The notes beneath the pieces were generated by a model, which was not told the origin of the DNA, did no database searches, and was given only the letters and a program-made list of their open reading frames with translations. From the human T2T-CHM13v2.0 reference genome, Homo sapiens, in NCBI RefSeq assembly GCF_009914755.1, contig NC_060938.1: a stretch of 64,000 nt of DNA. One strand, written 5' to 3'. Below are positions 38,400 to 61,975 of this stretch, piece by piece. Within the stretch, counting starts at the first letter, position 1. Every line of letters begins with the position of its first letter. The translations under genes were made by a program, and so were the position numbers.

Positions 38400-39350
38400 C
38401 CAGGCTTTGCCCAGAAGACAGTACACTTGTTTCCAGAACCCGGATCAAGAAATAGAATGTTTCTCACCCCCAAAGCCCCCATACCCCAACCTCAGAGGCA
38501 TCCGCTGTTTCAACTTCCTACACTGCAGACAAGTTTTCTCCCGCTTTTGACTTCCGTCAGATGGACCATACAGCGGGGGCTTCCCCAGGTCTGGCTTCCT
38601 TCACTCCACGTTGAGCTGTGAGCGTCAGTCATCCTGTTCATACAGCAAATGTTTATTCACATTCGTCGTTCGCTGCATCCCTTTATGACTACACGCCGGC
38701 TTTGTATCCAGCCGCCCATCCGTGGACACTTTGGTTATTTCTGGTTTCTGGAATTGGAAGCAGTTATAAACACCTTTTACGTGTGTCTTTTGGCAAAAAT
38801 GCATATGCACTTCCATTGGGTCTCTATCTAAGGGGGGAAAAGCAGGGCAATCGTACATATGCAGGTTCAGTGTAACAAATGCTGCCAAGCAGTTCCACAG
38901 GGCATGTGCCCCAAACACACACCTCATGTCCTCCTTGCACGGGACATTTTCTCTCTTCCCTTTTGGCCATTCATTTTAGAGGGGGTGTCCCATCGTCATT
39001 ATAGCTCACATCTTCCTGCTAACTAAGGAAACTTAGCATTTTATTGTTCATACATTTAGTGGGCATTTGGATATCTTACTGTGCGAGATGTCAGTTCAAA
39101 TATTTTGCCTATTTTTCTATCTATTTGTCTTGCTCCAGTTTTTAAAGGATTGATGTGTTGGGCTTTTTAAAATCTAGATATGAGATTTTTGTCAGAGATA
39201 TGTATCACAAATGACATCTCTTAGTTGTCTTTTCCTTCTCTTAACAATATCTCTGATGAACAGAAGTTCTTAATTTTAATGTGGTCCAGTTAATTGATCG
39301 ATTTTTTTCTTTATGGATAATGCTGTTTGTGTCCCATTTAAAAATGTTTA
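38400..39350 (-). mobile_element. L1ME-type 3' region, antisense
   Basis: 'cggatcaagaaatagaatgtt...ctggcttccttcactccacg...tggacactttggttatttctggttt...tgatgaacagaagttcttaattttaatgtggtcc'. Confidence 0.75.
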
Positions 39351-40169: not shown

Positions 40170-40460
40170 TTGAACATGAACAAACCCTTGCTGTATGAAC
40201 AGGATGATTGATGCTCACAGCTCAACGTGGAGTGAAAGAAACCAGACCTGGGGAAGCCCCTACTGTACAATTCCATCTGACTAAAGTCAAAAGTGGGAGA
40301 AAACTGGTCTGCAGTGTAGGATGTGAAAACAGTGGATGCCTCCGAGGTTGCGGTACAGGCAGCTTTAGGGTGAGGAATGTGAAATTTCACTCTTTTGTGA
40401 AAACCCTTCATCCCTCTGGTCTGTGCATTTTTGTGTGTGTGCCTGACACTTTAATCTGAA
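40170..40460 (+). mobile_element. L1ME/MC 3' end fragment
   Basis: 'gagtgaaagaaaccagac...tactgtacaattccatctgactaaagtcaaaa...ttgtgaaaacccttca...tgtgcattttt'. Confidence 0.65.
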
Positions 40461-43144: not shown

Positions 43145-45257
43145 GTAAACCAAAAGAATTCTTCACCAATGAATACGCACCACAAGCAGTGTTGAGGCAG
43201 GTTCTCCCAATGGATGGGAAATAGGGACGTGCTGCCAGATGGAAACCTGGCGCTTTGGTTCCCAGGACGGAGAGACCATGGTGGTTGAGTGAAAAGTACC
43301 CAGCAGGTTTAACAAGGGGAAGAATCTGCACTAATTCTCCCCTGGCTTACCTCCGGCATCACAGGGCCGGTGCCCCAGGGCTCTTTCCAATGCCCAGTTC
43401 GGAGCCCGTGTGCTTCTCATAGGTCTTCAAGGTGGAGGGAAAAGCAAGAGGCCGGGCCCCAGGCAAACCTTGGAACACGCATGTCCATGGCAGGTTGGTA
43501 GAGAACCTGGAGACAGGCTGGTCACACCAGAGGCCGGCTGTGGGGTGTGGGGCAAGGGACTCTGGGGTTTGGGCTTCCAGCGTGGAGCTGGGTCCGGGCA
43601 TCAGTGCCAGCATTACCACCCAGCTGTGCCACCTTAAGCCAATGTCCTCCCCTCTGGGCTTCTGTGTAAATTATAGGGAACCGATGATGGGCTGCGCGGG
43701 CCCTGAGGCAGCTCCAGCGCTGAGAGCCCGGATATGGCCTGTTTGCAGCTCTAGGGTTCTCTGGCTCTTGGAGCCCATGCAGACGAAGGAGCTGAGCAGA
43801 GCAGGTGCTGGGCAGCCATGGTTCTGAGTCTGAGCCTCTGTCTCCTCCGTGGTACTGAGAATTGCTCTCTGCCACCTCCCCGTGTCCCCAGCTATGGTCC
43901 TGCTCTTAGGATGGGTTTGCAGATCCTGGGGGCCCAGGTTGTGGCCGAGGACTGCCCTGTGTCTGGGGTCAGGGCTCTGGCATCCGTGGCCAGCAAGAGG
44001 GGCTTCCCTGCTCCCTGAGCCTCTGCTTCTTTTGGTAGCCACGACCCACTGTGACCGGAGGCTCTTTTAGAACGTGTGTATAACCACCTTCCCTCCCCTA
44101 CATGCTCACACTGGGTCTGGAAACTCCATCTTTCTGCTTCCCCTGACTTCTGCAGTCTGGGTCTGACTGTCTTGAGGGCCCTGCTTGCTAGAAGAGGTGG
44201 AATGGGATGGCTCGCCATAGCCTGAGGTGGCCGAGGAGCCAAGGTTGGTGGGGGCATGAGGGGTGTAGGAATCCCCCTCCCACCAGTGGTGCCCAGCCCA
44301 GGCACAGACCCCGTCAGTGTTGGATGGGGGTGTACAGTTCTAGGTCTCTGAATCGGACTTGGCTCTGCAGCCTCCCTCCTGGCTCAGCGCCCCCAGAGCA
44401 GAGCCTTCCCCCAGCAGAGAGGGTGTGAGGGAGGACAGTGACAGTGCAAAGGGGAGCTGGTGGCCCAGGAGTGGGGGGGGCACATGGGGGAGCTCCCCTC
44501 TCCTCCCCAGCCCCCACCTGCACCGGGCCTCGCAGCCGTTTGGTCCCTGAAAAGGCCTCCCTGCCCCAGCATGTGAATATGGATGTGTGCCTAAGGACTG
44601 GAGGTGCGGCCCTAATTAGAGCGTGATGACTGCCTCCCGCCGCTGCCGGGAGCCTGGGGCGGGCGTCAAAGGGGAGCAGCCCGCTAATCCCCCCTTCCAA
44701 GGGCAGCATCTGCTCCCCTCCCCTTGTCTCTCTGTCGGCAGCCGTGAGAGCCCTGGCTATTTAATTAGGACAGAAAGTTCCCCCAACCTTGGGAAATGAT
44801 TTAATTTCAATATTTCCTTTGCTGAGCGTGAGATCCTTCCCCACTGCCTGCCCCGTCCTCAAAGGCCTTTCATCTGCAGCCCACCCTCCCCCTGCAGACC
44901 CTCGCACTCCCCTCTCATTCCGGATGTCGGAGCGTTTCCAAGGGATCGCAGGGAGGAGTGAGGCTGGGCTGGGGGTGCTCCCTGGCTGCGTGCCCGGCTT
45001 CAGCTTCGGCTGGGACCAGCTGCTCGAACCACCCCTCCAGCCTGGCCTTCCTGCAAGCACCACCCTCAATGCCGCCCGGAGTGCTAGGCAGGGCCCTCTC
45101 CAGGCATCCACCCAGGCAGGAGCCAGGCCTGCAAAAAGCCCCCATGAAGCCTTGGCCCCAGAGATTGCGCCTCTGTAGCTCTTCCCTGGACGTCGCCACC
45201 TTCACTAACGGGCCTTTGTTATCGTCTTTAATCTGGCCTGACTCATTCTGCCCCCAG

Positions 45258-45455
45258 CATGTGGGTGTCTGCATGTGTGTGTGAATGTGCACATGTGTGA
45301 AGGGGAGCATGCCTACGCCTGTGTGTGCATCTGAGTATGCTGTGTACACGCAAATGTGCATAGTTTTGTGAGTGCATGTGCCCACAGTCTGTGTCAATGT
45401 GCACAAATGTGCGTGTGTGCACGTTTGTGTGTGTGCATGTGTGTGCATGTGTGAG
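45258..45455 (+). repeat. Degenerate (TG/TGCA)n alternating purine-pyrimidine tract
   Basis: catgtgtgtgtgaatgtgcacatgtgtg...gtgtgcatgtgtgtgcatgtgtg. Confidence 0.85.
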
Positions 45456-48400
45456 CTGAGAGTCCCCTGAAGTCTAAGCCTGCTTTCTCCCAATTCTTTT
45501 TAGACAAGTGGGCGCTCATGTCCTCAGCTGACACATCCAGGGCCAGCTCCAGGCTAGGCACATGGCAGGTGTGGGGTACACTGGCAAAGCAAACATGTAC
45601 ATGCTCAAATGAATGGAGTCAGCCCAGCCCAGGCCTGGCAGGTAGGCAGAGGGGGTGGGTGGTGGTGCTGGGGATGCTAAGATTGCTGGACTTGGGGACA
45701 GAAGGCCCAGTTGTAGTCACTCTGTCCCCTGCTCTTTCCAGACTCAGTGTCCCCATTTGTGCAATCACCTCAATCCCAGAGATCAGTGCCCTGTGCACAG
45801 CTGGGAAAGCCAGGTTAGCAAGGATTTCTCGTGACCCTGGGGAGCCGGCCCAGCCCCCAGGATGGTCCTCGGCCTGATTTCCTCCAGCAACGCCTCCTCA
45901 CAGCCCCCTCCCTGAGCTGGTCTTCACCCTCACTCTCCAGCCACTCTCCTCCTTCGTCCTGTCCTCTCCCATTTAGGACAAAGATCAGCGTCATCCCAGC
46001 TCTCAGCTGGGAGGGCCTCAAGCCCAGGCACAGGAGGCGGCTAATGAGAGGTATCAGCTGGGCGGCTCTGCCAGGAAACTCGCCGCCCTGAGCAATTTCT
46101 TAAAAGGAAAATTCTAACCTTAAAGAGTCCTTTGAACACGTTGTGAATGAACAACGGACTCGGTGGAGTTGGTTCCTCAGAATTACTGGGAGATGGAGGT
46201 TACAGAAAAGAGAAGATTGATTTCCATTTGGTCTCCTGAATATATTTCCTGAGTTCTTAAGGAGCTGTTTATCACGCCTCACACTGAGGGCGAGGTGGGA
46301 ATCCTTGGCTAACAAATTATGATCACTGTTATTCTCCCTCCCCTACCCATCCCCCACACGAGAATTTATGCATTTTCCAGACAAAACGTGCTTTCGCAGA
46401 GAGGCACTGGGTCGTCCTCACCGCAGTCAAGTATCGACAGTATTGATCAGACGCTCCCCGGCTAACAGGCACCAATGAGTCTGTGCCGCCCACGGTGATG
46501 TTCTGGCGGCTCGTGGGGACCCCACCCACCGTCAGCCTAGCTTATGGTCCCCGTGCCTCCTGACCCCACCTAAAGATGAGCCCCAGCAGGGGCCCTTTAG
46601 TGCATATTCATTCCCTGTTGGTCCACTCGCCAGCCAGGCGCTGTGCCAGCACGGGCTTAGAACACCAGTCACTCAGAGGACGCTCAATGCATGCGTGCAT
46701 GAACGAGTGAGGGTGTGAATGAATGAATGAGTATAGGTGTAGTTTGAAATAGAGCTGGAAACAGAAAGCCAGGGCCACGTGAGGGGAACTGCTCCAGCTT
46801 GTTGGAGATGGCCCTTTTGATCCCCAGGACAGGAATCTGACATTGATCACCCCAGAGACCCCTCTCTGGGCCTCCTGTCAGGCTCCCGGAGGTCCCGTGG
46901 GCCAGGCGGGCCTCCTCTCTCTGTCCCCCCAGTGATGGCACTGGAAGGGCTCTGAGGACGGCTGAACAAGGACGCATGACTCTGCTGTCCAGAGGCACCG
47001 CTGGCTCCTGGTGAGGAGCTTGGAAAGCAAATTTGCATGGAACTTTGAGAATTGCTTTCTTTCTGTTTTATGAAATCCTTCTCTAAATGTCTGCATATTG
47101 CTCTCCTGAGGGATAGAGGGAGAAAAATAGCAATTAAAGTCTTGTCATCCGACTTGTTCAGGCCGTTAAGTTGTTCAATCTTGCATAAGAAATCTGCTAG
47201 TGTGCTTAAGTGGGAGGGAGCACCTGGAGCCGGCTGTAAATGTAAATCAATATGTAATGATATGCGCCCAGGCTGCACGGCCTGTCACTTGCGGGCGCAA
47301 CCACCAGGGGCCCAGGTGTGTCCTCCGTGTGCGCCTGGTGGAGCCGGGCCTGGGCCCTTCTGCCCGCAGTGGTCTAAGCAGACGGAGAGAATGGTCCCAT
47401 GTGGGCACACCCTGTGGCGCGGCCTCTGAGCCATCTCCCTCTTCACCAGTCTTGCTGGGAAGTCCAGATGAATCACATTTGGAAGAAGCTACTTGCTGGG
47501 CCATTGGCCTGGACAAACACAACGGCATTCCTGGGCAGCATGGCCAGGGCGTGGGGGCTGCGCCAAAGTGCCAGGCCGCCCCCTCGCAGCCCAGCAGGGT
47601 CGGGTGGTGGTGAGTCCAGGCCCCGGGCTCCGATGGGAGATCGGATGGGGCGGGCTTGCCACTGACAGACAGATGTAGAGCCGGGCAGGTGGGCAGGGGC
47701 AAGCCTGGGTCTTTGAGGTGCGGCAGATGTGAACATCCCATTTTCCAGAGGAGGAAGGGGAAGCAGAAGCGCCCTGTGCCCCTGAGGTCCCTCTCTGCTG
47801 CCTCCCGGACAGCTGTCCGTGGCAGGCTGGGAGCCAGGCCTGGTCCTCACTTTATGTCCCCATTTTATGGCGTCTCAGGAGAAGGATATAAAGCTGGGGA
47901 GATTCATCCCCTTTGCAAGAGGTTCATTTATTTTGACACTTGTGGTTTAGTTTCAATTATTTATCATAACACTAGAGAGGGCCCTGATAAAAGCACCCAA
48001 GTGTGTTTAACAGCAGCCACGGTGAGGGTGACCAGTGGAGCAGGCACTTGGGGAAGGCCCCTGGGGACCAGGGCAGGAAGGTGTGGGTGGGAGGGAGCCC
48101 CTGGTCGAGGGAGCCCGCATGGGCTGGACGGCACTGGGGTTTTCCTCTTGGCTGGAAACACAGGAGGTGAAGGAGATACGCTCCAGCGTGCTTGGAAATG
48201 ACAACTTGTTCCAGTGCTGTCTGCAGAGCCAGATGGCAGCCAGGAACCTGGCGATGGGATTTTAGGAGCGAAGCTTCCTTCTCTTCAGTGGATACAGTTT
48301 TTCCACCTGCTTGAGCTTGAGCGCCAAGTGGGAAGGCCCAGCCCCTCGGCTTTGGTGAGATTCCCTCAGCCTGTGGCATCTGCACTATCTGGGCACCCAC

Positions 48401-51020
48401 CTGCCCTCACGTCTGTCCATCTGCCCACTTACCTGTCCATCCGTCCACATGTCTGCCTCCACTGGTGACGGTGCCTGCAGCAGACGCCACATGGGGATGG
48501 CCGACATGGAGGCGCATCAGGCCTGGCACTGCCTGGGAGCTCCTGGCCTGGGGAGAGGTGCAGCTCCCAACACAGGAACAGCTAGTAAGCCCCTGCTGGG
48601 CCCAAGTACTGTTCTATGACCTGTCCACGCAAGGGCCATCCAGCTCCAGGGCAGGCCCATTGACCTGCATCCTGTATGCAGACAGGTTCAGGCCGAGCCT
48701 GAGGACGGACTCAAGCCAAGCCGCTGGGTGGTGTCCTGCCTGACGGGGCCTCCTCCTAGACACTCGCCCTCAGACATGGGGGCTGAGGTGCCCGCCTTCT
48801 CCCAGGGGCCATGCCTCCCGCCCTTCCCAAGGCTACACCCTTACTGCCTGGTTGTGGAGAGGTTCATTTCTGAGCCATACACAGCCCCTCCCTGGGTCAC
48901 ACCCATCAGCTCTGGGCGGAGGAAAAGTGGGCATAGGGGGAACACAGCCTGCCTGTTCCTCCCTGAGCGGCTGGGTGTGTGTGGCTCCATCTTCCAGAAG
49001 AGGCAGACTGAGTGAGATGGGCGTGCAGAACCAGCCAGCTCTGGCATTTCCTACGGCGGCTGGGAAATCGGAGGCTCCAGAGAGGAGAGGGCCTGCCCGG
49101 GGCACACAGCAAGGTCCCTGGCTCAGGAAGCACACACAATGGCTTCCTCTGGCCCCGGCAGGGGCTGGGGTGCTTGGAGGGCCCCTTATGCTTCATGGCC
49201 CCGCAGCGTCTGCCCCAAAACAAGCCAAGATGGATGAAAAATCGCTGGCGAAGGTCACTACAGGACAGCCGCGGACCGGTTGATTGCTCGGGGCGGCCCT
49301 CGCCCCGTCGGCGACTCCATCGGCAACTTCGCCGCGCTCTGATTTATGATGGGAAGAAAATGGTCCCCTGAACCGCCACCGGCTCTGGTTTGGGATTCTG
49401 TGTGACTCTCTGTGTGGCCGGCCCACCGTTTATTCACACCACTGAAGTGTGAATTCTATGAATAAATTTTATTATCTTGGGGCTTTGGGATGACAAAAAC
49501 ATGAAAGCCTCCGGAATTGGTGAGATGCCCGCCTCTCCTCATTACGTCGGCTGGGGCTGGGGGCGGGGGCCCTCCTGGGAGCCTCATTTAGATTTTAATT
49601 AAACTGACTTTTCCCAAACAATTTGCAATAAATTAGTGCCAACCAGGCTTGCAACATCCAGGCGCGAGGCCGTGCCAGGCTGTCACGGGGGACGCTGGCT
49701 CTCAGTTGGGGTCACCCGCATGGGAGGCCATGCACACTCTGGACAGGCCGGCGCTGGCTCACTATGCTGGCCCCAAGGTTTGCGTGGCCAGGGGTAGCCC
49801 AGGCACACACCAGACTCCCAGCTGACACCTGCTCCAGGAGAGGGGAGCGGCCATGTGCTGGGAGGGGCTGGCGTCTTTTCACTGAATGCCCACAGCAACC
49901 TGGTGACGAAGATGTCAGCATAGCGCTCAGTGGCACCCTCAGGGCAGAGGATGCTGAGCGCCCAAACCGCAGCTTTGAGGATGCAGTGTGGTGGAGGGTG
50001 GCCGGCACGGTGTGGGGGTGTCCTCAGCACCCTCCGCCCTGGACCTTCCTGTTCCAGGTGGACTGAGCATCAGTGGGGTGCAGGGTCCAGGACAGACGGA
50101 AAGGGAGGCTGGGCCCCGGGTGCCAGCCGAGAGATCCTGACATCCCAAGTTCCCTGAACCTCACCTTGTGTTAGACATGTGGGAAAAACCGAGGCTCAGA
50201 GAAAGGGAGGTGATTTGAACCCCGGGCTTCTTCCACTGCAGGCCCCTGTTGCCATCCCCAGCCTGCCCAGGGAGCACTCCCTCAGCCAGCACATGGCCAG
50301 CCTCCAGTGGCCATCCGTGGGAAGGAGCAGAGCTGCTCTGCTGATGCCCAGAGAGATGTGGGGGGAAAACCTGCTGCTCCTCGGCTGGGAGAAACCCCCA
50401 GAGTGGCTTGCCTCCCAGTGACAACACTCAAGGTCCCCAGGAAGAGGGCGTGTTCTTAAAACCGGAAAACAGCCCAGTGCAGCCCTGGTGTGTGTCTGAA
50501 GGCTTTAGGATACTGAAGCTTGGCCCACAGGCCCTGGCCTTCCTGGAGAGAAGGGGCAGGGAGGAAGGGAAGGGGCCCTGGAGGGAGGCTGTGTGACCTG
50601 AGGGCTGGGTTTGGCCAGGCTGGTGCAGGCTCCGACAGCAGCCTCTCTCCAAGGGCCTGACCCTGACCTCCAGGATGCGAGGCCCACCAGGAAGCCCCCA
50701 CCTGCCTTGGCCCTGCCTGCTGCCCACGTCGGCAGCTCCCACCTGGCTTCACCACGGCCTCGGGGAAGGGGGTCCCTGCATTTGTGTGCCCCAAATCCCC
50801 GAACGGCAGGTATGGAGGTGACAGCCACAGATGACCTTGAGGTGGCCCCAGGGACCTCTCTCCCCATCAAAGGCTGTGCAGACAGGCATCCTCCTGCTTT
50901 CCAGCATCGACGTCTACGTCACAGGTGGAAGGCACATCACTCTTTCTAATATTCACACCGACAGTGGTCCCTTTGTTCTTGATTTTCCTGTCCCGTGGAT
51001 TTGTAAAAATGAATCTGCGT

Positions 51021-51211
51021 CTTTTATTGTGGTCAAATATACATAACGTACAGCGTATCACGGTAACCACTCTCGGGCGTAGTCAGCGGCGTTCAGCACA
51101 GTCGCATTCGTGCAGCCGTCACCACCATCCACCTGCAGAGCATCTTCATCTTCCCAGTCAAAGTGCCGTTCCCATTCAACACTGACGCCCTGTTCCTCCT
51201 CCACCCCAGCC
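51021..51211 (-). mobile_element. L1MB-type 3' end fragment
   Basis: 'ttttattgtggtcaaatatacataac...gtgcagccgtcaccaccatccacctgcagagcatcttcatcttccca...cccattcaacactgac'. Confidence 0.75.
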
Positions 51212-54200
51212 GGGAGAGGCGTTTATGTTTTATAAGAGGCTTTGGGGCTGCGGAGACGAACCCCCAGGTTTGCCAGGCCCAGCTGTGGTTAATTCAGGTC
51301 ACATATTCCAAGTTCCCGATGAGGAGGATCTCTGTCCCAGTGAGGCACCGGGGACAGGGTGCAGGGGACACAGGCCCTTGCCAGGGGCTCGGGGAAGAGG
51401 TCGGCACAGGTAGCCACCGTCAAGGGCCACCGCAGAGCTCAGGCAACGATGACGATCCTTCCGTTTTGCTCAATGCTCCACAGTCGACAAAGAGCGTTCT
51501 GGTCCACACACGACTGTGTGCTCGTGCGAGAGCCTTGGGGATGACATTACACAGTGTCTGTCCATCAGGCCCACAGGTATCCAGCAAGGTGGCGTCTGCA
51601 CATGCTGAGTGAGGGGAAGGTGCTGGTTGAGGAGGGAGCGAGGCTGTCCCCGGCCCTGGCCAGCTCCCAAAGCGTCCCTCAAGGCCAGCGATGTCCCAGG
51701 TCTTGGCTCCCTCGTGGCTGGATTGGTCTGGGGACTGGTGCATCCTCACTCTGAAAGGCTGCTGGGGCCTGGACTGGGCACCTGAGGATGAGAAAGTCAG
51801 ATGCATCTCCCTGGGTGCCTGCTGCCGCCCTCCTGGGAGTTTGTGGTCATAAAATAGGATCCTGGGAAGAAGCGACTCCAGAGGGAGGGCTCCGGGAGAG
51901 CTGGTGGGCTGCTGTCATGGCCTTGTGGGGCTCTGCAGCTCTTGGGGCAGTTATGAGCACAGCGATATACGGGGCCACTGGGGCTCCATGTAGCTCTCGG
52001 AGACTCTGAGAGAAGGAGCTGGCCCTTTGGAGCTGGAGAGTAGAACCAGCCTGGCTCCCCAGTGTGCCGGCTCCAGGGAGGCCCTGAGGCGGGCCCAGCA
52101 GGCCAGTCGCTGCTGCCATGGGTGGGCGTGCAGTCGGTTCTGGCAAGTCCTGCCTGCCCGGGAGGCCTGGTGCACACACTGGGGATATAGGACAGCCTCA
52201 CTGCTTCAACTGTGGGGTTGGTGGCGGGGGTCACCTTTCCTGCTTTACAGATGAGGGAGCCGAATTGCACTGGGGAGAGCCCTGGCCCCTAGTCTGTGTG
52301 TCCAACATTCTAGAGCCTGGGTTCTCGAGGCTGGTGGCTACAAGGTGGCTATTCTAGATTCCCTGTGTCTGGATGGTGTGGCCGCAGCACCCAGCCTGAA
52401 GGCTGATGGATCCCACTCAAGAACCCGGCCTCCTCATGCTATGTGCACACAGAGGGGCAAGGTTGGGGAGGGAGAGGGGCGAGTCCCAGGCTGCAGGTGG
52501 AGCGACCCCAAGCTCCCACCCCAAACAGCACAGTCCAGGACGCCCACCCGGAAGGAAGCTGCCAAGAGCTTCAGCACGTGGCTTTGAAATAACACAGTGT
52601 GATTTAACGGCCCGGGTGGTGTGGAACAGCGGCACGGTGGCTCCTCAGCAGTGGAGGCTCCGGTCCTGGCTGGTGCATCTGCTCCGGCAGCTGGCCGCCC
52701 CTCCATCCGCGGCCGTAACATTTCAAGACAGTTTTGCTTGCAAGGAGTCACAGTCCATTGGTTTTATGGAAACACTCTCTGAGTTTACTTCCCGCGCAGG
52801 GGAAAGACAGCTGTTTTATATGCACTTGGAGGAACACCTAAAGGGTTTTAGTGTTAATTAAGTTGGGAGGACGGTTCTTAACAAGCACCTTTTTGTAAAT
52901 GTCAAGCTGCTCTGCTGTTTCACTGTTGTTATGGAAGGTGGAAATTAGGCAGCGCCCCCTACTCCCTCCTGCGGCAGGAAAGGGGGCACCACCTGTGTGT
53001 GCTGGGGCAGGTGTGCTGACACCGGCTTGCTCAGTAGAGCCACTTCCTGGAATGATCCGGAAAGTATAAGGGCAGCCCAAGAGGGCAGAAAAGCCGCAGC
53101 ATCCAGAGAGTAATGGGGAGGCTCTGAGTGTTGGGGGCTGGTCTCAGGGACTGGCTCCATCTGGGGAGAGCTCACAATGTGAGGGCTGCAGACACAGCTC
53201 CCACCCAGAGCCCTGGCAGGACCCCCTCATGGGCAGGTCCGGGCAGCACATGGGAATCCCTGTCTCAGATGGTGGATGCCAGCTTGAAGCTCCCAATTTC
53301 ATCTTTAGATTTGGGCCTGGACGAAAAGTCCGACGTGCGGGGCGGTCAGCGCTTCGGCTGCGGTGGGTTCCCGCCCCTTGCTGCCTCCCCAGGATGGGTT
53401 CTTGGCCTTCTGGAGCTCCAGGCCCTACCCGGTTTCCCCCTCTCATCAAAACATGCGACCAGGCCATGTTTGCGGGGAGGCCAGTGCCCCACAGCCCCTG
53501 ACTGTCCCCGGTGGGGCCTGAGGTCGATCAGGAGCAGGGAGAGATGAGGCGTGAACACCTGGCTGTGAGCTGGTCCTTCCACGTGGAACACCCTGGATGG
53601 ATGGGGGCTGCAGATGGGCCCCGGGGCACACGATGGGGAAGGGGAGGCTCCCAGGAGTATCTTCAGGGCCCACAGGGAACCCCCAGGGAAGGGGCTTGGA
53701 CGGGTGGGGCTGTGGTTCCCGAGGGCCTGGAAAGCTGTGTGGACCTGAGGGTGTGCTGGGTCCAAGCCCAGCTGATTCCAGCGGGTGGGAAACCGTGTGT
53801 GAGGCTCTGGACGGCCTGTGGACAGGGCAGAGGCCCGGGATGTCTGGGAGGCCGGGTGGGGACACAGCCTTTCCCTGTCGGCTCAGGAGTTGGCACCGCT
53901 GAGGAAAGGGGGATGTTCAACAAATGAGCTTCAGAGAAACCCCCCAACACCACTACTCCTGGAGGAGGCATCCTGAAGACTGAAATGTTCCCGGGTCTCC
54001 AGAAAGGAATCCTGGGGCCAGCACTGTGTGGGGGCAGCTGACCTCCCAGGGCCACTGCTGTCGCTGCACCCACTGGCAGTGGGACAGGAGCCTGGGCCAG
54101 GACCCAGAGACCTGAGTCATGTCAACCCCACCCCCTACCCCCAATTTCTTGACCACCGGGGCCTTCACCAGACCTGCCTGGCTCCGGCCTCTGTCATGTG

Positions 54201-55227
54201 GAGACTGGAAGTTTCAGGGCTCAGCCTGGGTGAGCACGTGGGAGCCCTGCGGTGAGTGGGGGTGGAACCCCGGACTCCAGGGACGGCGCTCCAGGAGGGG
54301 TCTCAGGCACACCCCAACCTCCCAGCGGCCGTGACGGGCTTGGAGGCCTGTGTCAGGCCACAGCAGGCCAGGCCCGGTTTCCGGACCCTGCTGAGAGCCA
54401 CAGACCCAATGACTTCTGCAGCTTGCCCCGTGAATGGAGCTCCATGCCAAAGCTTGGTCTCCAGGGTGCTGCTTCTCCAGCACCAGCGGCTCCCAGGCTT
54501 GCAGGGGCGGCGTGGCCTGGGCCAGCTTTCCCAGCCATTGTTCTCCCTGTGTGAAAACCCCAGGGCTCCCCAGCCGGCACCACCACACCCCTTTGCCTTT
54601 CCCCTCCTGCGGCCCCTCTGCTGGGTCACAGCCTTGGAGATGGGCCTGCAGAGGCACCCACACACCCTGGCCAGAGCTGACATCCTAAGCAGGCTGACAA
54701 CCAGCCTGCAGGCTGAAGGACCCTGGAGAGACCTGGCCAGGCTGGACCCTGCAATCAGAAACAGAAGGCCCTTCTAGTGGGGGAAACTGAGGCCCAGAGG
54801 AGGGTAGAAGACTGCCCACAGCTGCCCGAGGGGGCTGAGTTCTGAGTCTGGGCTCTGGGTGGCCTGAGCAAGAAATCTGCTCCTGGGCACCCGCGGCTGT
54901 GACGGCTCCTGTGGCTGGGTCCTGGAACTCCTCCTGCCTCAATCATCGATTGGGCAGAAGGTCTGGAGCATGCTGGGCCTGGCTGCTGCCTGGGCACGAG
55001 TGGGGATAGCTTCAGTGTCACCTCAGTCACCCCAGGAGCCCTGCGGGATGGCTGCCCCACTTCACAGATGGAGTCTTGAGAGAGCTGATCAAGAACGGGG
55101 TGTGGGCCTCTGTGGTTTCCGCCTCCCGGATGCCCCATGCCTCTGTGTCTCAGAGGTGCCTGGGCCTCTGGGCTGCTGCCAAGTCCAGGACTAAGTGTTC
55201 TTCCAGAGCCCCAGATGCATCCTTCTG

Positions 55228-55228
55228 G

Positions 55229-55269
<41 letters not shown>

Positions 55270-55270
55270 G
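55228..55270 (+). repeat. (TG)n microsatellite, one interruption
   Basis: ~21 TG units with a single TT interruption. Confidence 0.97.
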
Positions 55271-56514
55271 GTCTCTGGGGGCAGTGGTAGGAGCCTGGGT
55301 TGCAGGGGCTGTCTTTGCTAGATCTCAAACTCAAAGGGGACCCTCTCTCTGGTTGCCTGGGGAGTCTGCTGCCCCGCCACCCCCCCGCAACAGTCCTGCT
55401 TGCTGCTCCTGTGCCTTCCTGCCCCCGAGCCCCGTCCCCAGCCCCTTTCCCTGCCCAGCCCTCTCTGCTGCCTTCCAGGCCTGCTCTCTTGACTTCAGAG
55501 GATGAGACTCGGGTCTGCCTTCAGGCTCCCAGGGGAAGGGTCCCAGGAGCTGCACTCTCCTCCCTGCCTGACAGTGCAGGAGGAGGTCGATGCCGTAGGA
55601 GGAGGGCAATGCCCCGGCAGCAGGTGCTCTCTGGCTCCAGCTCCCCATTCGTGCACCGCCTCAGCCCTGCAAAGTAGGTTGGTGCAGTCTTACGGGGGGA
55701 TGTCTGCAGCCAGGCATCACCATCCGCAGCCAGGCAGAACGTGAGGCTGGTGCTGTGACCTGGGCCAGCACTTCCCTCACACTCTCCTTGTCCTTCCATG
55801 CCTGGCCTCAGTGAGGAAGGGTCCTCCTGGAGATGGGGCTGGGCAGACGTCCCTGGAGGGTCCCAGGAAGGCTCTGAAATCTGGCACATTCTGCAACCTA
55901 TGTTCCAACCACTGACTCCAGGAACTGGTGCATGGGCTGAAGCAATGAAGAAAAGTCACCGTCCCATGAGGCAAAGCTGATTTAAAAGCTCACTTATTCT
56001 TAGTGGGAAAAATGGGGTTAGCAACCATAACATTTGAAAACCAACTGGAAATAGGCTGGTAAATAACTTTATGGAATTGTTGGTTCGGGAATTATGTTAG
56101 GAACTTGGAGTCTGTGATTATCAAGCAAAAAATGTCTCAGCATTTCAGGCCAGGGTCAGGGAGAGGGTAGGGGTGGGAATGGGGTCTATAGAGGTTATAG
56201 GAAAAGAAATCTGAGTGGTTGTTTAGGAGACTGAGGAGACTGAAAAGACCCTGAAACCCCACGGAGGTGATCAGGGACACTGGCCTGCCCTGAGATGCCT
56301 CTTCCAGTGTGCCTTCCTCCCCGCTGCCCTGCCCAGGCCAGCTCCCTGGAAACCCACTAAGAGGAAGGGTGTCTTGTGACCAGCCACATCACGAGATGTC
56401 CCACATCGCAGATTTCAGGTGCAAGGATTGAGGTGTCACAGCAAACAGAGGAGGGGCTGGGGTAGGTGTGGTTCTACAGCAGCTCTTAAAACAGAATAAA
56501 CAAAAACTACAAGC

Positions 56515-56688
56515 GGTCTGCCACGGTGGCTCACACCTGTAATCCCAGCACTTTGGGAAGCTGAGGTAAAAGAATCACTTGAGCCTGGGAGTGTGAGGCT
56601 GCTCCCTCTGGTGAGCTGTGATCACACCACTGTACTCCAGCCTGCGTGACAAAGCGAGACCTTGTCTCTAAAGAAAACAAAACAAAAA
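56515..56688 (+). mobile_element. Alu monomer (FAM/FRAM-like)
   Basis: Single arm 'ggtggctcacacctgtaatcccagcactttgggaagctgagg...gtgagctgtgatcacaccactgtactccagcctg...gagaccttgtctct' + A-rich tail. Confidence 0.85.
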
Positions 56689-57578
56689 CCAAGTGTAATC
56701 AACCTTGCCCTTGAAAATGCGTTAGTCCACCCACCAGGTCATCTGGAATCTATCTTGGGATAGGTGGTGACCTGGTAGGACCAAGGGTCTTCCGAGGCAC
56801 TGAAGAACTTGGGTTTTGCTGTAGATCTGAGTGGGGAGTTTTGGGAGGAAGGGGCGGGAAGTACCTTGATCTCACTGCCAGGGCCCCTTTGGCTGCTGAG
56901 GGGACAGCAGCTGAAACAGGACGGGCAGTGCACGTCCAGCGAGGACACCCTGGCCGCAGGTCTGCCCAGCGACAGGAGGAGGGCTGCATCTGGGGTCCGT
57001 GGTGGAGGTGGACACAGCGGCCAGCTTCTGGGAGCGTTTTAGAGTGAAGTCCACAGGACGTGTGTGAGGGAGTGAGCCGGCATCCAGGGCAAGGTCCTGA
57101 GATTCAGACGGTGGTGCTGTTTGGCAGTGACCCTGGGTGTGGGCGTCCCGGGTGCCGGGGAGAGCTCATCTTCAGAAATGAGGAGGCCGGGGGTGGCACA
57201 GACTGTCCACACAGGGGTTCTGTGGCCTGGCGTGCTGCCAGTCCAGAGATCCCAAAAAAACCTGTGTCCCGGCTGCTGTCCTTGGCCCTGCTCTGACCCC
57301 TGCTCTCCCCGCTGCTTTTCAGAATTGCTGCTCCGTGAATTTCTGAATTGCAGTACTCGCTGTGCACCTGTCTCTTCCTTCGGGAGCCATTGTCAGGTGG
57401 GATTGCGTAAATGTCCTCCATGGCGTGAGGCCCTGACTCACCTGAACAACATTCCCCAGTGAGCACGGAGCAGCAGCCCGCCCGGCTCAGCAGTGCCTTG
57501 CCCTGGCCCTTTCTCTCCTCGCTGGTTCATCTGCATTAAAGAAACAGAAAGCTTCCTTCGCTGGCCCGCTCATTGCCT

Positions 57579-58236
57579 GTCTTCTCTCCCTGCCTCAGCT
57601 GCGGTCAGGCTCCAGGTGAGCTGCACCTGGCCGTCTCAATTACACTGCTTCTCTGGCATCGGATAGGAACTCTATGGCCAACTTACCCACAAGGTGGTCT
57701 GCAATATCTTTGAATAAATTAATGATTGAATGAATGTCTTAGTCCATCCAGGCCACTACAACAAAACAACACAGATGGGGCAGCTTAACAGTGGACATTC
57801 ATTCCTCACATTTCTGGAGGCTGGGAGTCCAAGGTGAAGGTGGCAGCAGGGTTGGCTCCAGAGAGGGCTGCTTCCTGGTCCCCGGACAGCCTCCTTCTTG
57901 CTGTGTCCTCTCATAGCAGAGAGAGGATGTTCTGTCACGGGCCCTCATGACCTCCTCTAAGCCTCATCAGCTCCCAGGGGCCTCACTTGCAAATACCATC
58001 GCATTGGGGTCAGAGCTTCCACATAGGAAACATTTGGTCTGTAGCAACGAGTGAATGAATCATTACAGATTTCTCTATAAGACCACCAGGTCTTAATGTA
58101 TTCAAAGATATTGCAGACCACCTCTTGGGTAAGTTGGCCATAGAGTTCTTATCCAATGCCAGAGAGGCCGCGTAAATGAGACGGCCAGGTGCAGCTCACC
58201 TGGAGTCTGACCGCAGCTGAGGCCGGGAGAGAAGAC
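57579..58236. repeat. Inverted repeat: 144-bp arms at 57579-57722 and 58093-58236
   Basis: Manual alignment of arm 1 with the reverse complement of arm 2: 133/144 identical, no gaps. Confidence 0.95.
57735..58046 (-). mobile_element. MLT1A-like solo LTR (loop of the inverted repeat)
   Basis: tgtcttagtccatccaggccactacaacaaaac...ttctggaggctgggagtccaaggtgaaggtggcagcaggg...aaataccatcgcattggggtcagagcttccacatag...gtagca. Confidence 0.85.
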
Positions 58237-58599
58237 CGACGACGTCTGAGTCGTCAATGTTGTGAAAGATCTCCAGAGTGATGAAATTAAGGGTATTTAT
58301 TTCTTTAGTTGTTGCTTTTGTTGTAGCAAACAAAATGAAACAAACACACATGCACACAAAACGACCAAGCAAAAAGTGTCCGCTACTTGTTAAAGTGAAC
58401 CTCTAGTAAAGTTGTCTCTCTTTTTGTCACCGAGGATGAGAAACAGAGATGGGAATTCTATCCTCATGGAAAACAGGAGGCACCCACAACTCTGAGCCCC
58501 TGAGAGTGTGAAGGCCTTGCCGAGTGACCTCGCTGCTCCAGGGCGAGGCGGAGGCCAGGCTGCGGGGCTGCACAGCCAGCCAGGGAAGCTCCCCGCCCC

Positions 58600-59580
58600 A
58601 GGACTGCCCTCCCACACACTGCAGACAGTTGTTTCGGGAAGAACTCACTTTATATGCACAAATAAACAATGACAGAAAGGAATGAAAATAGTGTCCACTG
58701 AAAACATTACAAGAAAAAGGAAGAAAATAATAGAAAAGGTAAAAAGCAAAGACACAAAAAATCCTCGCATTGGGGAAGATGATGGAAACCTTCTTAACAA
58801 TCAGAAACTTAACGATCTAAATGAAAATGTCTTTCACGTAAAACAAAAGCCAAGACAGACTTCAATAAGAAACAAAAAGATGATAGGAGATTTCAAAAAT
58901 AGGCAGGCAGAGCTCAAGAAAAGAAGCAGAATTTTAAAAATCACAAAATGAAGGCCACACTAGAATCAAAGAAAAAGAGAATAGATTCTCCTAAAACCAT
59001 TGCCAGGGATGTGGAGTCAAGCTTGGAAAAAGTGAAAAAAATTCACCAGAAAAGAATAAAGAGTTGCGATGGTTTAGAGGAAAGGATAGAAAAGGAAAAC
59101 ACAAAATGCCGACACAACACACACATAATTGGTGGCCTTGCAGGAGAAAATCAAATATAAAAGAAAAATAATTCAAATAATTCAAGAAAATGTGGTGAAA
59201 CTAAAAAAGATGAAATCTATGGATTAAGAGGGTATATCATGTTTCTACAAAAATTGGTGCACTTGATCAGCACTGAGACTTGGGGGTCAAACACGAAGAA
59301 TTTGTTTGGCACCGAGGCAAAAATATGAAGGCCCTGACATGAGAAGAGAAGTCCAAGCTGGCTTCAGATTTTCTACGGCAACACCTCATCTTAGAGAAGA
59401 GGGAAATAATGCCTGCAAAATCTCCAGGAAAAGAAAGTATGAACCAAGAATTTTATATCAGAGTAAAATTTTAGAACAGAATAAAGCTGTTACTCATGCT
59501 GAATCATAAAAAAGCGCTTCTGAAAATATTCACAAATGGAGGAACTCTTGTCTACTGAAGTTCCTTTTAAATAAATAAAT
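58600..59580 (+). mobile_element. L1 ORF1-like relic (HAL1 or old L1M)
   Basis: Broken ORFs 58682-59509: K/E-rich coiled coil then 'FSTATPHLREEGNNACKISRKRKYEPRILYQSKI', resembling the ORF1p C-terminal domain; no recognisable ORF2 follows. Confidence 0.7.
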
Positions 59581-59709
59581 AGAGAATGAATTTTAGTCCA
59601 CCAAAAGGCAAATGAACAGGCTGTGAAGGACTAGGTCAAAACAACTGAGAGACTTAGGCCGTGGAGCGTTAAGTAGTGTGGAGTGTGTCAGTGGAGACAG
59701 GCGGCAGAG

Positions 59710-59935
59710 CTTTGGTGGCCTGTGACAAATAAATCCGGACAGCTCCTCCTCTCCCTGTGGGTGCAGCCACTCACCCAGGAAGTCCACTTCCCTCCACCTG
59801 ACTCTAGGCTGGCCTCATGGCTTCTTTGGCCAATCCAATGAGGCAGAAGGGGTGTCTTGTGAGTTCTGGAACCTGGGTCTTAGGGCGTGGTAGCTTCAAT
59901 TTTCACTGTCATGGCAAATCCTGATGCCGGGGCGC
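59710..59935 (+). mobile_element. Old MLT1-family LTR fragment
   Basis: 'acttccctccacctgactctaggctggcctcatggcttctttggccaatccaatgaggcagaag...gagttctggaacctgggtcttagg'. Confidence 0.6.
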
Positions 59936-59939
59936 CTTC

Positions 59940-60347
59940 TGATATGGTTTGAATAAAATCTCACCTGAAATGTGATCCCCAATGTTGGAGGTGGGGCCTG
60001 GTGGGAGATGTTTGGGTTATGGGGGTGGATCCCTCATGAATGGCTTGGGGCTGTCCCCATGGTAGTGAGTGAGTTCTCACTCTTAATTCACACAAGAGCT
60101 GGTGTTAAAAAGAGCATGGCACCTCCTCCTATCTCTCTTGCTTCCTCTCCCATCATGTGACATTCTTGTTCCCCTTCCACCTTCCATCATGAGTGGAAGC
60201 AACCTGAGGCCCTCACCGGAAGCCGAGCAGATGCCAGTGACATAATTCTGTACAGCTTGCAGAACTGTGAGCCAAATAAACCTGTTGTCTTTATAAATTA
60301 TCCAAGCTCAGATATTCCCTTATAGCAACACAAAACAGAGTAAGACA
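59940..60347 (+). mobile_element. MSTB-like solo LTR
   Basis: tgatatggtttg...gggggtggatccctcatgaatggcttgg...gccaaataaacct...tatagcaacacaaaacagagtaagaca; TSD ccttc/tcttc. Confidence 0.9.
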
Positions 60348-61194
60348 TCTTCCCTGCGCTGCTCCCGCCACCCCTTCTCCCCGGAGAGCAGCTTCTCGGA
60401 AAATCACCTGCACCTGAATCTTTGGCTCAGCATCTGCTCTGAAAAACTTGATCTAACACGGCATCTAAGATCCAAAGGAAGTTAGCTCAGCCTGACGCCA
60501 GCTTTCTCTCTAAAAGCACCCAATCCAAGCACATGGCCTGTGGCAGGATGTGGAAGCAATGCCCCTGGGTCTCAGGACACTCAGGGTAGGCAGGTGGAGA
60601 GCTCTTAGTATGGCAGGAGTGATGGGGGTGGGGGTGGGGATGCTGGAGGTGGTGCTGAGAACACAGGTGGCACAAAGACCCAGTCCACTCCTCCTGTGAC
60701 CTTTGCCCTCCAGCTCCTGCCAATCAACTTCTCAGTCAGTGTCTAGGCCCAGCCCTCTATTGCCTCCGTGCTGCCATGGCCTCCCTGTCCATCTCCCAGG
60801 CAACAGAGGAGTCGGTCTGAGGCCTCCAGCCTCACAGCCAGTGTAGTTGCATGTTAGGTACCACTTCCATCCTCGGCTGTCAAAGAACAATGCTCCTTAT
60901 CTGAAGAATGTGGTCTGGAGATAATTAGTTCTAACGGGACACAGCCCTGTGGCTGCTGTGGATGGGGCTTTGTTGTGGCTCAACAATGCCACCATCAGCC
61001 CAGATGTCGTGCACAGGCTTGGGCAAAAGGCAGGTGACTGCAGACTCACAGGGGCTCAAGAAGCACACCATGTGGGAGAGCTGTGGAGATTCACTAAAGG
61101 ATGGAACTAAACAGATCGACAGAGACAGACTAAAAAACAGCCTCTTCAGCCTTTGTCTGCAGTGTGCCTAATGCCTCCAGCCACCAGCAAATCA

Positions 61195-61420
61195 ATAACA
61201 ATAATAACAAAACCATCACCAGTGACGACAGGGGGCCCTCATCAGGCACTCCACCCATGAGGCACTCACAGTAACTTGATAAAGATGATGCAAATTACAT
61301 ATATCCCTATTCATAGGTGAAGGAAAGGAGGTGGGCAGTTTACCTGACTTGCTCCCAGTCCTGGAATTCTGAGCAGTGAAGCCGAGATTCAAACCCAGGA
61401 TGCCTGGCTGCAAAGCCCAC
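61195..61420 (-). mobile_element. MIR
   Basis: 'aataataacaa...tatccctattcataggtgaaggaaag...tgacttgctcccagtc...gccgagattcaaacccaggatgcctggctgcaaagccc'. Confidence 0.65.
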
Positions 61421-61897
61421 ACATGTGCACAGCTGGCACCATACCCACCCGGTGCTGCCCACACATGTGCACCTGGCCCCATACTCACCCTGTGCTGCCC
61501 ACGCAAGTCCCCACTGATATGGTTTGGATTTGTGTCCCCACCCAAATCTCATGTCAAATTATAATCCCCAGTGTTGGAGGAGGGGCTTGGTGGGAGGTGA
61601 CTGAATCATGGGAGCAGATTTCCCTTTTGCTGTTCTCACGATAGTGAGTTCTCATGAGATCTGGTTATTTTAAAGTATGTTGCACCTCCTGCTTCCCAGT
61701 CTTCCTCCTTCTCTGGCCATGTAAAATGTGCCTCCTTCCTCTTTGCCTTCTGCCATGATTGTAAGTTTCCTGAGGCACCCCAGCCATGCTTCCTGTACAG
61801 CCTGCAGAACTGGGAATCAATTAAACTCCTGTTCTTTATAAATTACCCAGACTCAGGTAGTTCTTTTTTAAAAATTTTTTTCCTTTTAATTTTTCTT

Positions 61898-61975
61898 TGT
61901 CATCCTTGTACAGGGACCATGCTAATGTTCTCTGTACCATTCCAATTTTAGTATATGTGCTGCCAAAGTGAGCAC
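61898..61975 (-). pseudogene. U6 snRNA retropseudogene (U6 nt 1-78, 3'-truncated, A-rich tail)
   Basis: Minus strand GTGCTCACTTTGGCAGCACATATACTAAAATTGGAATGGTACAGAGAACATTAGCATGGTCCCTGTACAAGGATGACA, 70/78 identical to U6 as recalled; tail 61867-61897; TSD tcaggtagttcttt at 61853-61866 and 61976-61989. Confidence 0.95.

What the first reader, a model, noticed from the sequence alone, without database searches (positions are those of the whole stretch)
57579..58255. 144-bp inverted duplication enclosing an LTR, with micro-hairpins at both ends of the right arm
Seen: 57579-57722 and 58093-58236 are reverse complements (133/144, ungapped), separated by 370 bp that is mostly an MLT1A LTR. The right arm is bounded by taagacc-acca-ggtctta (58078-58095) and gacgac-gtctga-gtcgtc (58238-58255). 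The arms match no repeat I recognise and look more alike than the LTR is to its family, so the duplication appears younger than the LTR or has been homogenised. Known: snap-back hairpins at junctions are typical of template-switch/TMEJ events, and inverted repeats promote small inversions and, if transcribed, long dsRNA. Inference: a non-Alu ~140-bp stem-loop (ADAR/Dicer substrate) or a flippable 370-bp LTR cassette.
Basis: partly seen in the sequence, partly recalled or inferred. Interest (0 to 1): 0.7.

Follow-up and report, generated by a model that had tools for sequence, protein, structure and literature searches.

The report
Inverted duplication around an old LTR
A 144-base stretch of unique human DNA sits in two reverse-complement copies on either side of an ancient solitary retroviral LTR; it is real, but most likely an ordinary replication copying error with no sign of a function.

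Summary
57579-57722 and 58093-58236 are reverse complements, 133 of 144 ungapped, and both micro-hairpins are present.

The arms and their outer flanks occur nowhere else in the T2T genome. They are therefore not the ends of a transposon, and not two copies of a repeat.

The 370-nt spacer holds a 312-nt solitary LTR (57735-58046, TG...CA ends). It belongs to an old high-copy family: 744 first-look candidates, and 70.6-79.0% identity to 29 kin. The name MaLR/MLT1 is recalled, because no repeat library was on hand, and subfamily "A" is untested. Print dates MLT1 to more than 100 Mya.

Arm-to-arm distance (K2P 0.081) is 0.25 of the LTR-to-kin distance (0.317), with a range of 0.12-0.48.

Best reading (confidence 0.5): a template-switch or fold-back copy made long after the LTR arrived, roughly 20-40 Myr ago.

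Main rival (0.3): an older palindrome whose loop the LTR entered, with the arms later made alike again. The arms hug the LTR, and an 8-nt inverted pair continues the symmetry.

No transcript, RNA family or sign of selection was found. The arms are too short and too diverged for flipping or MDA5-type dsRNA. Other species' genomes would decide between the readings.

The parts
57579..57722 (.). Left arm of the inverted duplication. It is unique sequence and the probable template.
   Evidence: 133 of 144 complementary to the right arm; no other copy in the genome; no micro-hairpin at either end.
57720..57727 (.). Left member of an 8-nt inverted pair (TAATGATT). It overlaps the last 3 nt of the left arm and ends 7 nt before the LTR.
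   Evidence: longest reverse-complement match between 57720-57734 and 58047-58092 is 8 nt. Background P(>=8) is 0.010 (8886 placements with the same geometry in the window) and 0.008 (20000 shuffles).
57723..57734 (.). 12-nt inner left flank, GAAT-rich. Its last 5 nt (ATGAA) are the candidate target-site duplication.
57735..58046 (.). Solitary LTR, 312 nt, of an old high-copy family. It is recalled as ERVL-MaLR, MLT1 group; the subfamily is untested. Its orientation was not determined by any tool.
   Evidence: 744 first-look candidates, 40 scored, 70-81% identity; homology to kin starts at 57735 and ends at 58046; starts TGT, ends GCA; both flanks are unique, so no inner region adjoins it.
58047..58092 (.). 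46-nt inner right segment. It comprises a candidate target-site duplication (ACGAG, 3 of 5 with the left), a GAAT-rich stretch, the right 8-mer, and about 27 nt with no counterpart on the left.
   Evidence: no 12-mer of it recurs elsewhere in the window.
58059..58066 (.). Right member of the 8-nt inverted pair (AATCATTA), starting 12 nt after the LTR.
58078..58095 (.). Micro-hairpin at the inner end of the right arm: 7-bp stem, 4-nt loop. The last 3 nt belong to the arm.
58093..58236 (.). Right arm, the probable inserted reverse-complement copy.
   Evidence: Micro-hairpins lie at both of its ends and at neither end of the left arm. The 6-mer AAGACC occurs at 58079-58084 and again at 58232-58237, across its outer end (read).
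58238..58255 (.). Micro-hairpin just outside the right arm: 6-bp stem, 6-nt loop, CpG-dense.
   Evidence: 4 CpG in 58237-58256, observed/expected 2.2 against 0.28 for the whole window.

Best explanation
An ancient LTR retroelement inserted here and was later reduced to a solitary LTR (57735-58046). It is recognised from memory as MaLR of the MLT1 group. Much later, roughly 20-40 million years ago in the primate lineage, a replication or repair error occurred. The growing strand, just right of the LTR, switched to the complementary template (or folded back on itself). It copied about 144 nt of the unique left flank backwards and then returned. This left a reverse-complement insert (58093-58236) with untidy junctions.

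The result is a local inverted duplication of unique DNA with the LTR as spacer. It has since drifted neutrally to 92% identity and has no demonstrated function.

Shown: the repeat, its uniqueness, the LTR and its bounds, and the four-fold difference in divergence. Inferred: the order of events, which arm is the copy, the mechanism and the date.
For: - Divergence. Arms K2P 0.081 (non-CpG 0.055) against a median of 0.317 (0.249-0.378) between the LTR and its 29 fetched kin (non-CpG 0.304). The ratio is 0.25, and 0.12-0.48 from the exact Poisson limits on 11 differences. Even the upper limit is under half.
- Neutral drift. Differences are spread evenly (scan P 0.13-0.68; longest-run P 0.74). They give 3 G:U wobbles for either transcript strand, so there is no sign of patchy conversion or of selection for pairing.
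- Recombination limits. At 144 nt the arms are at or below the published minimal segments (134-232 bp mitotic, 300-500 bp human meiotic, passages). Sustained recombinational homogenisation is therefore hard to credit.
- Uniqueness. The arms and flanks are unique in the genome, so the copy was templated locally.
- Asymmetry. Hairpins lie at both ends of the right arm and at neither end of the left. A 6-nt direct repeat spans the right arm's outer end.
- Published mechanism. In the four-point template-switch model, type 3-2-1-4 creates an inverted repeat and made up 31% of confident human-chimp events (passages).
- Local precedent. A second unique inverted duplication 19 kb away has a 1.5-kb, mostly unique spacer. 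Inverted copies at some distance do arise in this region.
Against: - Geometry. The arms end 12 and 46 nt from the LTR. With the 8-nt pair the symmetry reaches to 7 and 12 nt (P about 0.01). A late copy has no obvious reason to frame the LTR so exactly.
- Size. The copied piece (144 nt) exceeds the longest of the great-ape gold-standard events (median 12, maximum 128). The 331-370-nt distance exceeds the under-100-bp spacing usual at yeast inversion junctions.
- Junctions. No clear microhomology lies at the inner junction, and about 27 nt between the 8-mer and the arm stay unexplained.
- Dating. The LTR distance was measured only to the 29 best of 744 candidates, and it includes differences between source elements.
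- No outgroup genome could be consulted.
Confidence: 0.5

Rival explanations
1. Palindrome first. A palindrome of about 150-bp arms with a roughly 13-nt GAAT-rich loop existed before the LTR arrived. The element integrated into the loop, and the arms were afterwards kept or made alike (template-switch homogenisation or gene conversion) until a few tens of millions of years ago. A 27-30-nt insertion later split the inner end of the right arm.
For: - The LTR and its candidate target-site duplication lie at the axis of symmetry. The arms reach within 12 and 46 nt of the LTR, and the 8-nt pair 57720-57727 / 58059-58066 brings this to 7 and 12 nt.
- In vitro, retroviral integrases prefer sites next to the loops of cruciforms, and weakly palindromic target sites are common (passages of PMC3279379 citing earlier work).
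- Template switching between non-identical inverted repeats is reported to homogenise arms (PMC8604942, abstract start in the listing; classic model described).
- Template-switch events usually make short-loop hairpins.
Against: - If the arms were older than the LTR and neutral, they should be no more alike than the LTR is to its kin (70.6-79.0%). They are 92.4% identical.
- The arms are shorter than the published minimal recombination segments.
- Differences show no patchiness.
- No weaker inverted similarity survives outside the arms (z 0.3 and 1.06).
- The 8-mer re-uses 3 nt of the arm and is a post-hoc find.
Confidence: 0.3
2. The hairpin, or each arm, is functional and held by selection: a structured RNA that is edited or diced, or a duplicated regulatory element.
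For: As RNA the region would form a 144-bp helix. Sparse non-repetitive dsRNA-forming loci are reported to be enriched within 3 Mb of chromosome tips, and this locus is 2.52 Mb from the q end.
Against: - No transcript or functional element is annotated over it. The nearest is an enhancer at 54797-55066.
- No Rfam match lies within 57.5-58.3 kb.
- Mismatches give no strand preference for wobble pairs, 3 against 3 of 11, and 5 of the 11 differences are transversions that break pairing on either strand.
- It is below the >300 bp, >96% paired class.
Confidence: 0.07
3. The arms are terminal inverted repeats of a DNA transposon, or two independent insertions of one repeat in opposite orientation.
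For: Many short human palindromic elements have this look (recalled).
Against: - In each of three genome searches (E up to 10 or 1) only 2 of 2 candidates were found, the query and its partner.
- The same tool did find old repeats at 68-82% identity for other queries.
- The 8 nt outside the two arms share no direct repeat, 3 of 8 (read).
Confidence: 0.03

Closest known systems
Short-range template-switch mutations (four-point model, event type 3-2-1-4; PMC5453318, PMC7954356, PMC10710096)
   Same: A nearby stretch is re-copied in reverse complement, which creates a new inverted repeat and a potential hairpin in a single event. Such events are common in the primate lineage.
   Different: Here the copied piece is 144 nt and lies 370 nt from its template. 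The great-ape gold set has a median of 12 and a maximum of 128 nt. The junctions carry extra bases, and the ancestral state could not be seen.
Fold-back or leading-to-lagging-strand switches at short interrupted inverted repeats (ODIRA; PMC10766183)
   Same: An inverted junction centred on a pre-existing short inverted pair. Here that would be the 8-nt pair flanking the LTR.
   Different: The yeast junctions use 2-14-bp repeats, mostly 40-80 bp apart, and give large amplicons. Here the pair is 331 nt apart, the copy is only 144 nt, and about 27 nt separate the 8-mer from the arm.
Non-repetitive predicted dsRNA loci of the human genome (dsRNAscan; PMC11838218)
   Same: Inverted repeat of non-repeat sequence, intergenic, within 3 Mb of a chromosome tip. 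The class is sparse, about 2 per Mb, and tip-enriched.
   Different: I could not see whether this locus is in their table, because supplements are closed. It is below their long and highly paired class.
Solitary LTRs of ERV3/ERVL-MaLR, MLT1 group
   Same: Old, very high-copy, TG...CA ends, about 300-370 nt, no adjoining inner sequence. Print lists MaLR under ERV3 and dates MLT1 to more than 100 Mya.
   Different: Nothing unusual in the LTR itself. The name rests on recall, because no repeat library was on hand.

Membership tests
ERVL-MaLR LTR (MLT1 group) | Member of a dispersed, high-copy repeat family | tested here: met
   744 first-look candidates, 40 scored, 44 matches at E<=0.001 including the query itself, on many chromosomes.
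ERVL-MaLR LTR (MLT1 group) | LTR termini TG...CA | tested here: met
   first bases TGT, last bases GCA. The ends of homology to kin fall at 57735 and 58046.
ERVL-MaLR LTR (MLT1 group) | 5-bp target-site duplication (the length is recalled) | tested here: inconclusive
   ATGAA against ACGAG, 3 of 5. Among the 29 kin only 1 reached both ends, and it showed 1 of 5.
ERVL-MaLR LTR (MLT1 group) | Significant match to a curated reference for MLT1, and for subfamily A | not testable with these tools
No Dfam or Repbase library was on hand.
ERVL-MaLR LTR (MLT1 group) | Copies occur as direct pairs around an inner region | tested here: inconclusive
   The one pair seen (L033, chr3) is 98% identical over 216 nt, 1017 nt apart. 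That makes it a recent local duplication, not an old LTR pair. I did not pursue this further, because naming was not to lean on inner sequence.
ERVL-MaLR LTR (MLT1 group) | Age of tens to more than 100 Myr | tested here: met
   Median K2P to 29 kin is 0.317, about 0.16 per lineage. Print gives MLT1 >100, MST 75 and THE1 55 Mya. The divergence alone does not separate MLT1 from MST.
DNA transposon or MITE with terminal inverted repeats | Other copies of the arms in the genome | tested here: not met
   only the query and its partner arm.
DNA transposon or MITE with terminal inverted repeats | Target-site duplication outside the two arms | tested here: not met
   Read: the 8 nt outside each arm agree at 3 of 8 positions.
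Template-switch mutation (four-point model) | A segment that is the reverse complement of nearby sequence, in switch-point order 3-2-1-4 | tested here: met
   The event type is described.
Template-switch mutation (four-point model) | Ancestral state without the copy seen in an outgroup | not testable with these tools
   Only the human reference could be read.
Template-switch mutation (four-point model) | Size within the range of described short-range events | tested here: not met
   144 nt against a median of 12 and a maximum of 128. The locus lies just beyond the described tail.
Endogenous long dsRNA (ADAR, Dicer or MDA5 substrate) | Long, mostly paired helix | tested here: met
   the arms pair along their length, z = -30. 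For the MDA5-type class (>300 bp and >96% paired) the test is not met: 144 bp, 92%.
Endogenous long dsRNA (ADAR, Dicer or MDA5 substrate) | Both arms in one transcript, with editing or small RNAs | not testable with these tools
   No expression or editing data were on hand. No transcript is annotated.
Known structured RNA or miRNA family | Match to an Rfam model | tested here: not met
   (E<=1, 56500-59500): no hit within 57.5-58.3 kb. (gathering, whole window): only U6 at 61869-61975.
Recombination-flippable inversion cassette | Uninterrupted identity at or above the minimal efficient processing segment | tested here: not met
   Longest identical run is 29 nt and the whole arm is 144 nt. Published values are 134-232 bp mitotic and 300-500 bp human meiotic, though events under 50 bp are reported between very close repeats.

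The most novel reading that the evidence does not exclude
The LTR element integrated into the loop of a pre-existing, cruciform-capable palindrome of about 150-bp arms. That would make the locus a genomic fossil of the preference of retroviral-type integrases for hairpin tips, so far known from test-tube work. It would also mean the arms were held or reset to near identity across a 331-nt spacer for tens of millions of years, although they are shorter than the usual minimum for recombination.
Probability: 0.25. Interest if true: 0.55.

Novelty: new member of a known kind. Interest (0 to 1): 0.27.

Why it matters
As it stands this is one more local inverted duplication of the kind that template switching makes, wrapped around a commonplace ancient solitary LTR in a gene desert. 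It has little consequence by itself.

Two points have some value.
- It would sit just beyond the largest short-range template-switch event in the one great-ape set I could read (144 nt against a maximum of 128 nt), at a larger distance from its template. This may matter for how such events are searched for.
- The sequence carries a small paradox. The geometry says the palindrome came first, while the divergence says the LTR came first. A simple cross-species alignment would settle it. If the geometry wins, the locus bears on where integrases land in vivo and on how short inverted repeats are kept alike.

The second unique inverted duplication 19 kb away fits the reported enrichment of such structures near chromosome tips.

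Tried and rejected
- Extending the repeat. A gapped local alignment of 435 nt against 454 nt did not extend the 144-nt block. The outer flanks (300 and 500 nt a side) show no residual inverted similarity: z 0.3, with 127 of 300 shuffles as good, and z 1.06, with 67 of 300. The direct-orientation control gave z -0.22.
- Transposon ends or a repeat pair. Rejected, because there are only two copies genome-wide.
- Apparent leftward extension of LTR homology into the left arm. This was seen in 7 of 29 first alignments. Inspection showed gappy AT-rich noise, and true homology starts at 57735.
- Templates for the junction segments. No 12-mer of 58047-58092, 58237-58300 or 57520-57578 recurs in the window on either strand.
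- Patchy conversion. Not detected.
- Selection for RNA pairing. No strand bias in wobbles.
- Rfam. Nothing at the locus.
- LTR pair on chr3 (L033). It is a 98% identical recent duplication and says nothing about naming.
- Target-site duplications in kin. Only 1 of 29 loci had both ends, so the test is uninformative.
- It does not mask the LTR and was of no help.
- Not done: a protein search of the arms (no open frame was looked for), any cross-species, pangenome, expression or editing look-up (no tool), and any check against a repeat library (none on hand).
- The supplements of the dsRNA and template-switch papers may list this locus. They were closed.

Papers, and what I saw of each:
- Passages only (find mode): PMC5753468, PMC5453318, PMC7954356, PMC10710096, PMC1794541 (including the text of Table 1), PMC3279379, PMC10766183, PMC2583991, PMC3966225.
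- PMC11838218: passages plus sections 9 and 10 whole.
- PMC8604942 and PMC8794818: start of the abstract in the search listing only.

Recalled, from no call:
- the names MaLR, MLT1 and ERVL for this LTR;
- the 5-bp length of their target-site duplication;
- the conversion of divergence into years.

Full report
**1. The observation**

The sequence at 57300-58560 and two repeat scans show arms 57579-57722 and 58093-58236: 144 nt, 92% complementary, 370 nt apart. A gapped local alignment of 57300-57734 against the reverse complement of 58047-58500 gives the same ungapped block, 133 of 144, and nothing more. The 11 differences are 6 transitions and 5 transversions.

Both micro-hairpins are present: 58078-58095 (7-bp stem) and 58238-58255 (6-bp stem). 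As RNA, 57560-58260 folds at -410.1 kcal/mol against -231.8 +/- 5.9 for 20 shuffles. The long repeat is far beyond chance.

The micro-hairpins are only nominally unusual. The window has 53 hairpins with 7-bp stems and 184 with 6-bp stems, and 1.8% and 4.9% of positions lie within 2 nt of one. Three of the seven pairs of the inner hairpin are the arm's own first bases. Neither end of the left arm has such a hairpin.

**2. The arms are unique DNA**

I ran three searches of the whole T2T genome: the left arm plus 13 nt (E up to 10), 58047-58560, and 57100-57734 (E up to 1). Each found 2 of 2 candidates, the query and its partner arm.

The same tool found old repeats at 68-82% identity for other queries, so a high-copy ancient repeat would probably have shown. 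The tool does skip very common words. The 8 nt outside the arms share no direct repeat (3 of 8).

**3. The virus remnant: real, old, solitary**

The spacer query (57723-58092) drew 744 first-look candidates. Of these, 40 were scored, at 70-81% identity on many chromosomes. Local alignments to the 29 saved kin loci gave 70.6-79.0% identity.

Seven of the 29 alignments seemed to run left into the arm. Inspection showed gappy AT-rich noise, with real homology starting at 57735. At the other end homology stops at 58046. The element is thus 312 nt and starts TGT and ends GCA. The flanking 5-mers ATGAA and ACGAG agree at 3 of 5. Relative to several kin it has one short internal deletion. Both flanks are unique, so no inner sequence adjoins it and it is a solitary LTR.

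No repeat library was on hand. Subfamily 'A' and the strand are untested. Print places MaLR (MLT1, MST, THE1) under ERV3 (PMC5753468, passages). It gives ages of more than 100 Mya for MLT1, 75 for MST and 55 for THE1 (PMC1794541, Table 1 text).

Median K2P to the 29 kin is 0.317 (range 0.249-0.378). For the 21 kin with at least 250 aligned nt it is 0.316. That is about 0.16 per lineage, which fits an age of the order of 70-100 Myr at recalled mammalian rates. The figure is biased down because these are the best 29 of 744 candidates, and biased up by differences between source elements. It does not by itself separate MLT1 from MST.

Two attempts to add LTR hallmarks failed:
- The only direct pair seen (chr3, L033) is 98% identical, so it is a recent duplication.
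- Only 1 of 29 kin had both ends for a target-site check.

**4. Relative age of the arms**

Arm-to-arm K2P is 0.081 (non-CpG 0.055), against 0.317 (non-CpG 0.304) for LTR-to-kin. The ratio is 0.25 on all sites and 0.18 on non-CpG sites. With exact Poisson limits on 11 differences (5.49-19.68) the ratio is 0.12-0.48. Either the arms arose long after the LTR, or they were made alike again long after it. Scaled to the LTR's age this is roughly 20-40 Myr, with wide error.

**5. The paradox**

The geometry points the other way. The arms end 12 nt before and 46 nt after the LTR. An 8-nt inverted pair (57720-57727 and 58059-58066) carries the symmetry to 7 and 12 nt from the LTR, on either side of the GAAT-rich target site. 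About 27 nt on the right have no counterpart. The background chance of such an 8-mer is 0.010 (8886 placements with the same geometry) or 0.008 (20000 shuffles). However, it re-uses 3 nt of the arm and was found post hoc.

If a palindrome of about 150-bp arms came first, the LTR sits in its roughly 13-nt loop. That agrees with the in-vitro preference of integrases for sites next to cruciform loops (PMC3279379, passages).

**6. Weighing the two orders**

For 'LTR first, copy later':
- The four-fold divergence gap.
- No clustering of differences (scan P 0.13-0.68) and no strand bias in wobble pairs (3 against 3).
- No weaker inverted similarity outside the arms.
- Arms shorter than published minimal recombination segments: 134-232 bp mitotic, 300-500 bp human meiotic, though events under 50 bp occur between very close repeats (PMC2583991, passages; PMC3966225).
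- Hairpins and a 6-nt direct repeat only at the right arm.
- A second unique inverted duplication 19 kb away with a 1.5-kb, mostly unique spacer, so distant inverted copies do form here.

For 'palindrome first':
- The geometry.
- The usual short loops of template-switch hairpins.
- Reported arm homogenisation by template switching (abstract start of PMC8604942).

A hybrid is possible. The weakly palindromic target site flanking the LTR may have served as the short interrupted inverted repeat at which a late switch occurred, as at yeast inversion junctions (PMC10766183, passages). Those junctions are mostly 40-80 bp apart, whereas here the pair is 331 nt apart, and 27 nt separate the 8-mer from the arm.

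I put 0.5 on the late copy (including the hybrid), 0.3 on palindrome first, and the rest on selection, repeats or artefact.

**7. Function**

Nothing supports one.
- The locus lies in a gene desert between LINC02691 and C14orf180. The nearest annotated features are an enhancer at 54797-55066 and RNU6-684P.
- No Rfam family matches within 57.5-58.3 kb.
- The helix would be an adequate ADAR substrate if transcribed. It falls short of the >300 bp, >96% paired class thought relevant to MDA5 (PMC11838218, section 10).
- With a longest identical run of 29 nt, recombinational flipping of the spacer is unlikely now.
- Expression, editing, small RNAs and haplotype orientation could not be examined.

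**8. Comparison with the known**

The closest kind is the short-range template-switch mutation. Type 3-2-1-4 makes an inverted repeat and accounted for 31% of confident human-chimp events. More than 50,000 such events are inferred in genic regions of the primate lineage. This case is larger (144 nt against a maximum of 128 in the great-ape gold set) and further from its template.

As a structure it belongs to the sparse non-repetitive dsRNA-forming loci, about 2 per Mb and enriched within 3 Mb of chromosome tips. This one is 2.52 Mb from the chr14q end.

I rate it a new member of a known kind, of modest interest, with one testable twist.

Noticed in passing
window 38460-38659 and 40177-40377: A second inverted duplication of unique sequence: 173 of 197 aligned positions identical (87.8%), with only the two copies genome-wide. 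Its 1.5-kb spacer is mostly unique and holds an old dispersed repeat only at about 38980-39350. Two such structures in 64 kb is far above the reported average of about 2 per Mb, and fits the reported enrichment near chromosome tips.
   Followed up: partly
window 58237-58256: The 20 nt just outside the right arm hold 4 CpG, observed/expected 2.2 against 0.28 for the window and 0.13 for the LTR. This is odd for old neutral DNA and suggests the stretch is young or protected from methylation.
   Followed up: partly
window 57612-57630 and 58185-58203: Each arm carries the same internal 7-bp-stem hairpin. Its presence in both arms follows from the duplication itself.
   Followed up: no
window 57723-57734 and 58047-58059: The LTR's insertion site is GAAT-rich on both sides. 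This makes the exact target-site duplication ambiguous.
   Followed up: partly
window 61869-61975 (-): Full-length U6 match, 85.5 bits against a gathering score of 44. It coincides with the annotated pseudogene RNU6-684P.
   Followed up: partly
window 56500-56670: Weak sub-threshold matches to SRP RNA (27.4 bits, gathering 70) and mir-619 (27.3 bits, gathering 80). This is the usual signature of an Alu fragment.
   Followed up: no
L033:881-1096 and 1898-2113 (chr3): A 216-nt direct repeat, 98% identical and 1017 nt apart, that includes a piece of an LTR of the same family. It is a recent local duplication, not an old LTR pair.
   Followed up: partly
window 43157-61507: The repeat-mask table supplied with the session has no masked interval here. 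Yet the stretch holds at least the 312-nt LTR and an Alu-like fragment. That table greatly under-reports old repeats.
   Followed up: no
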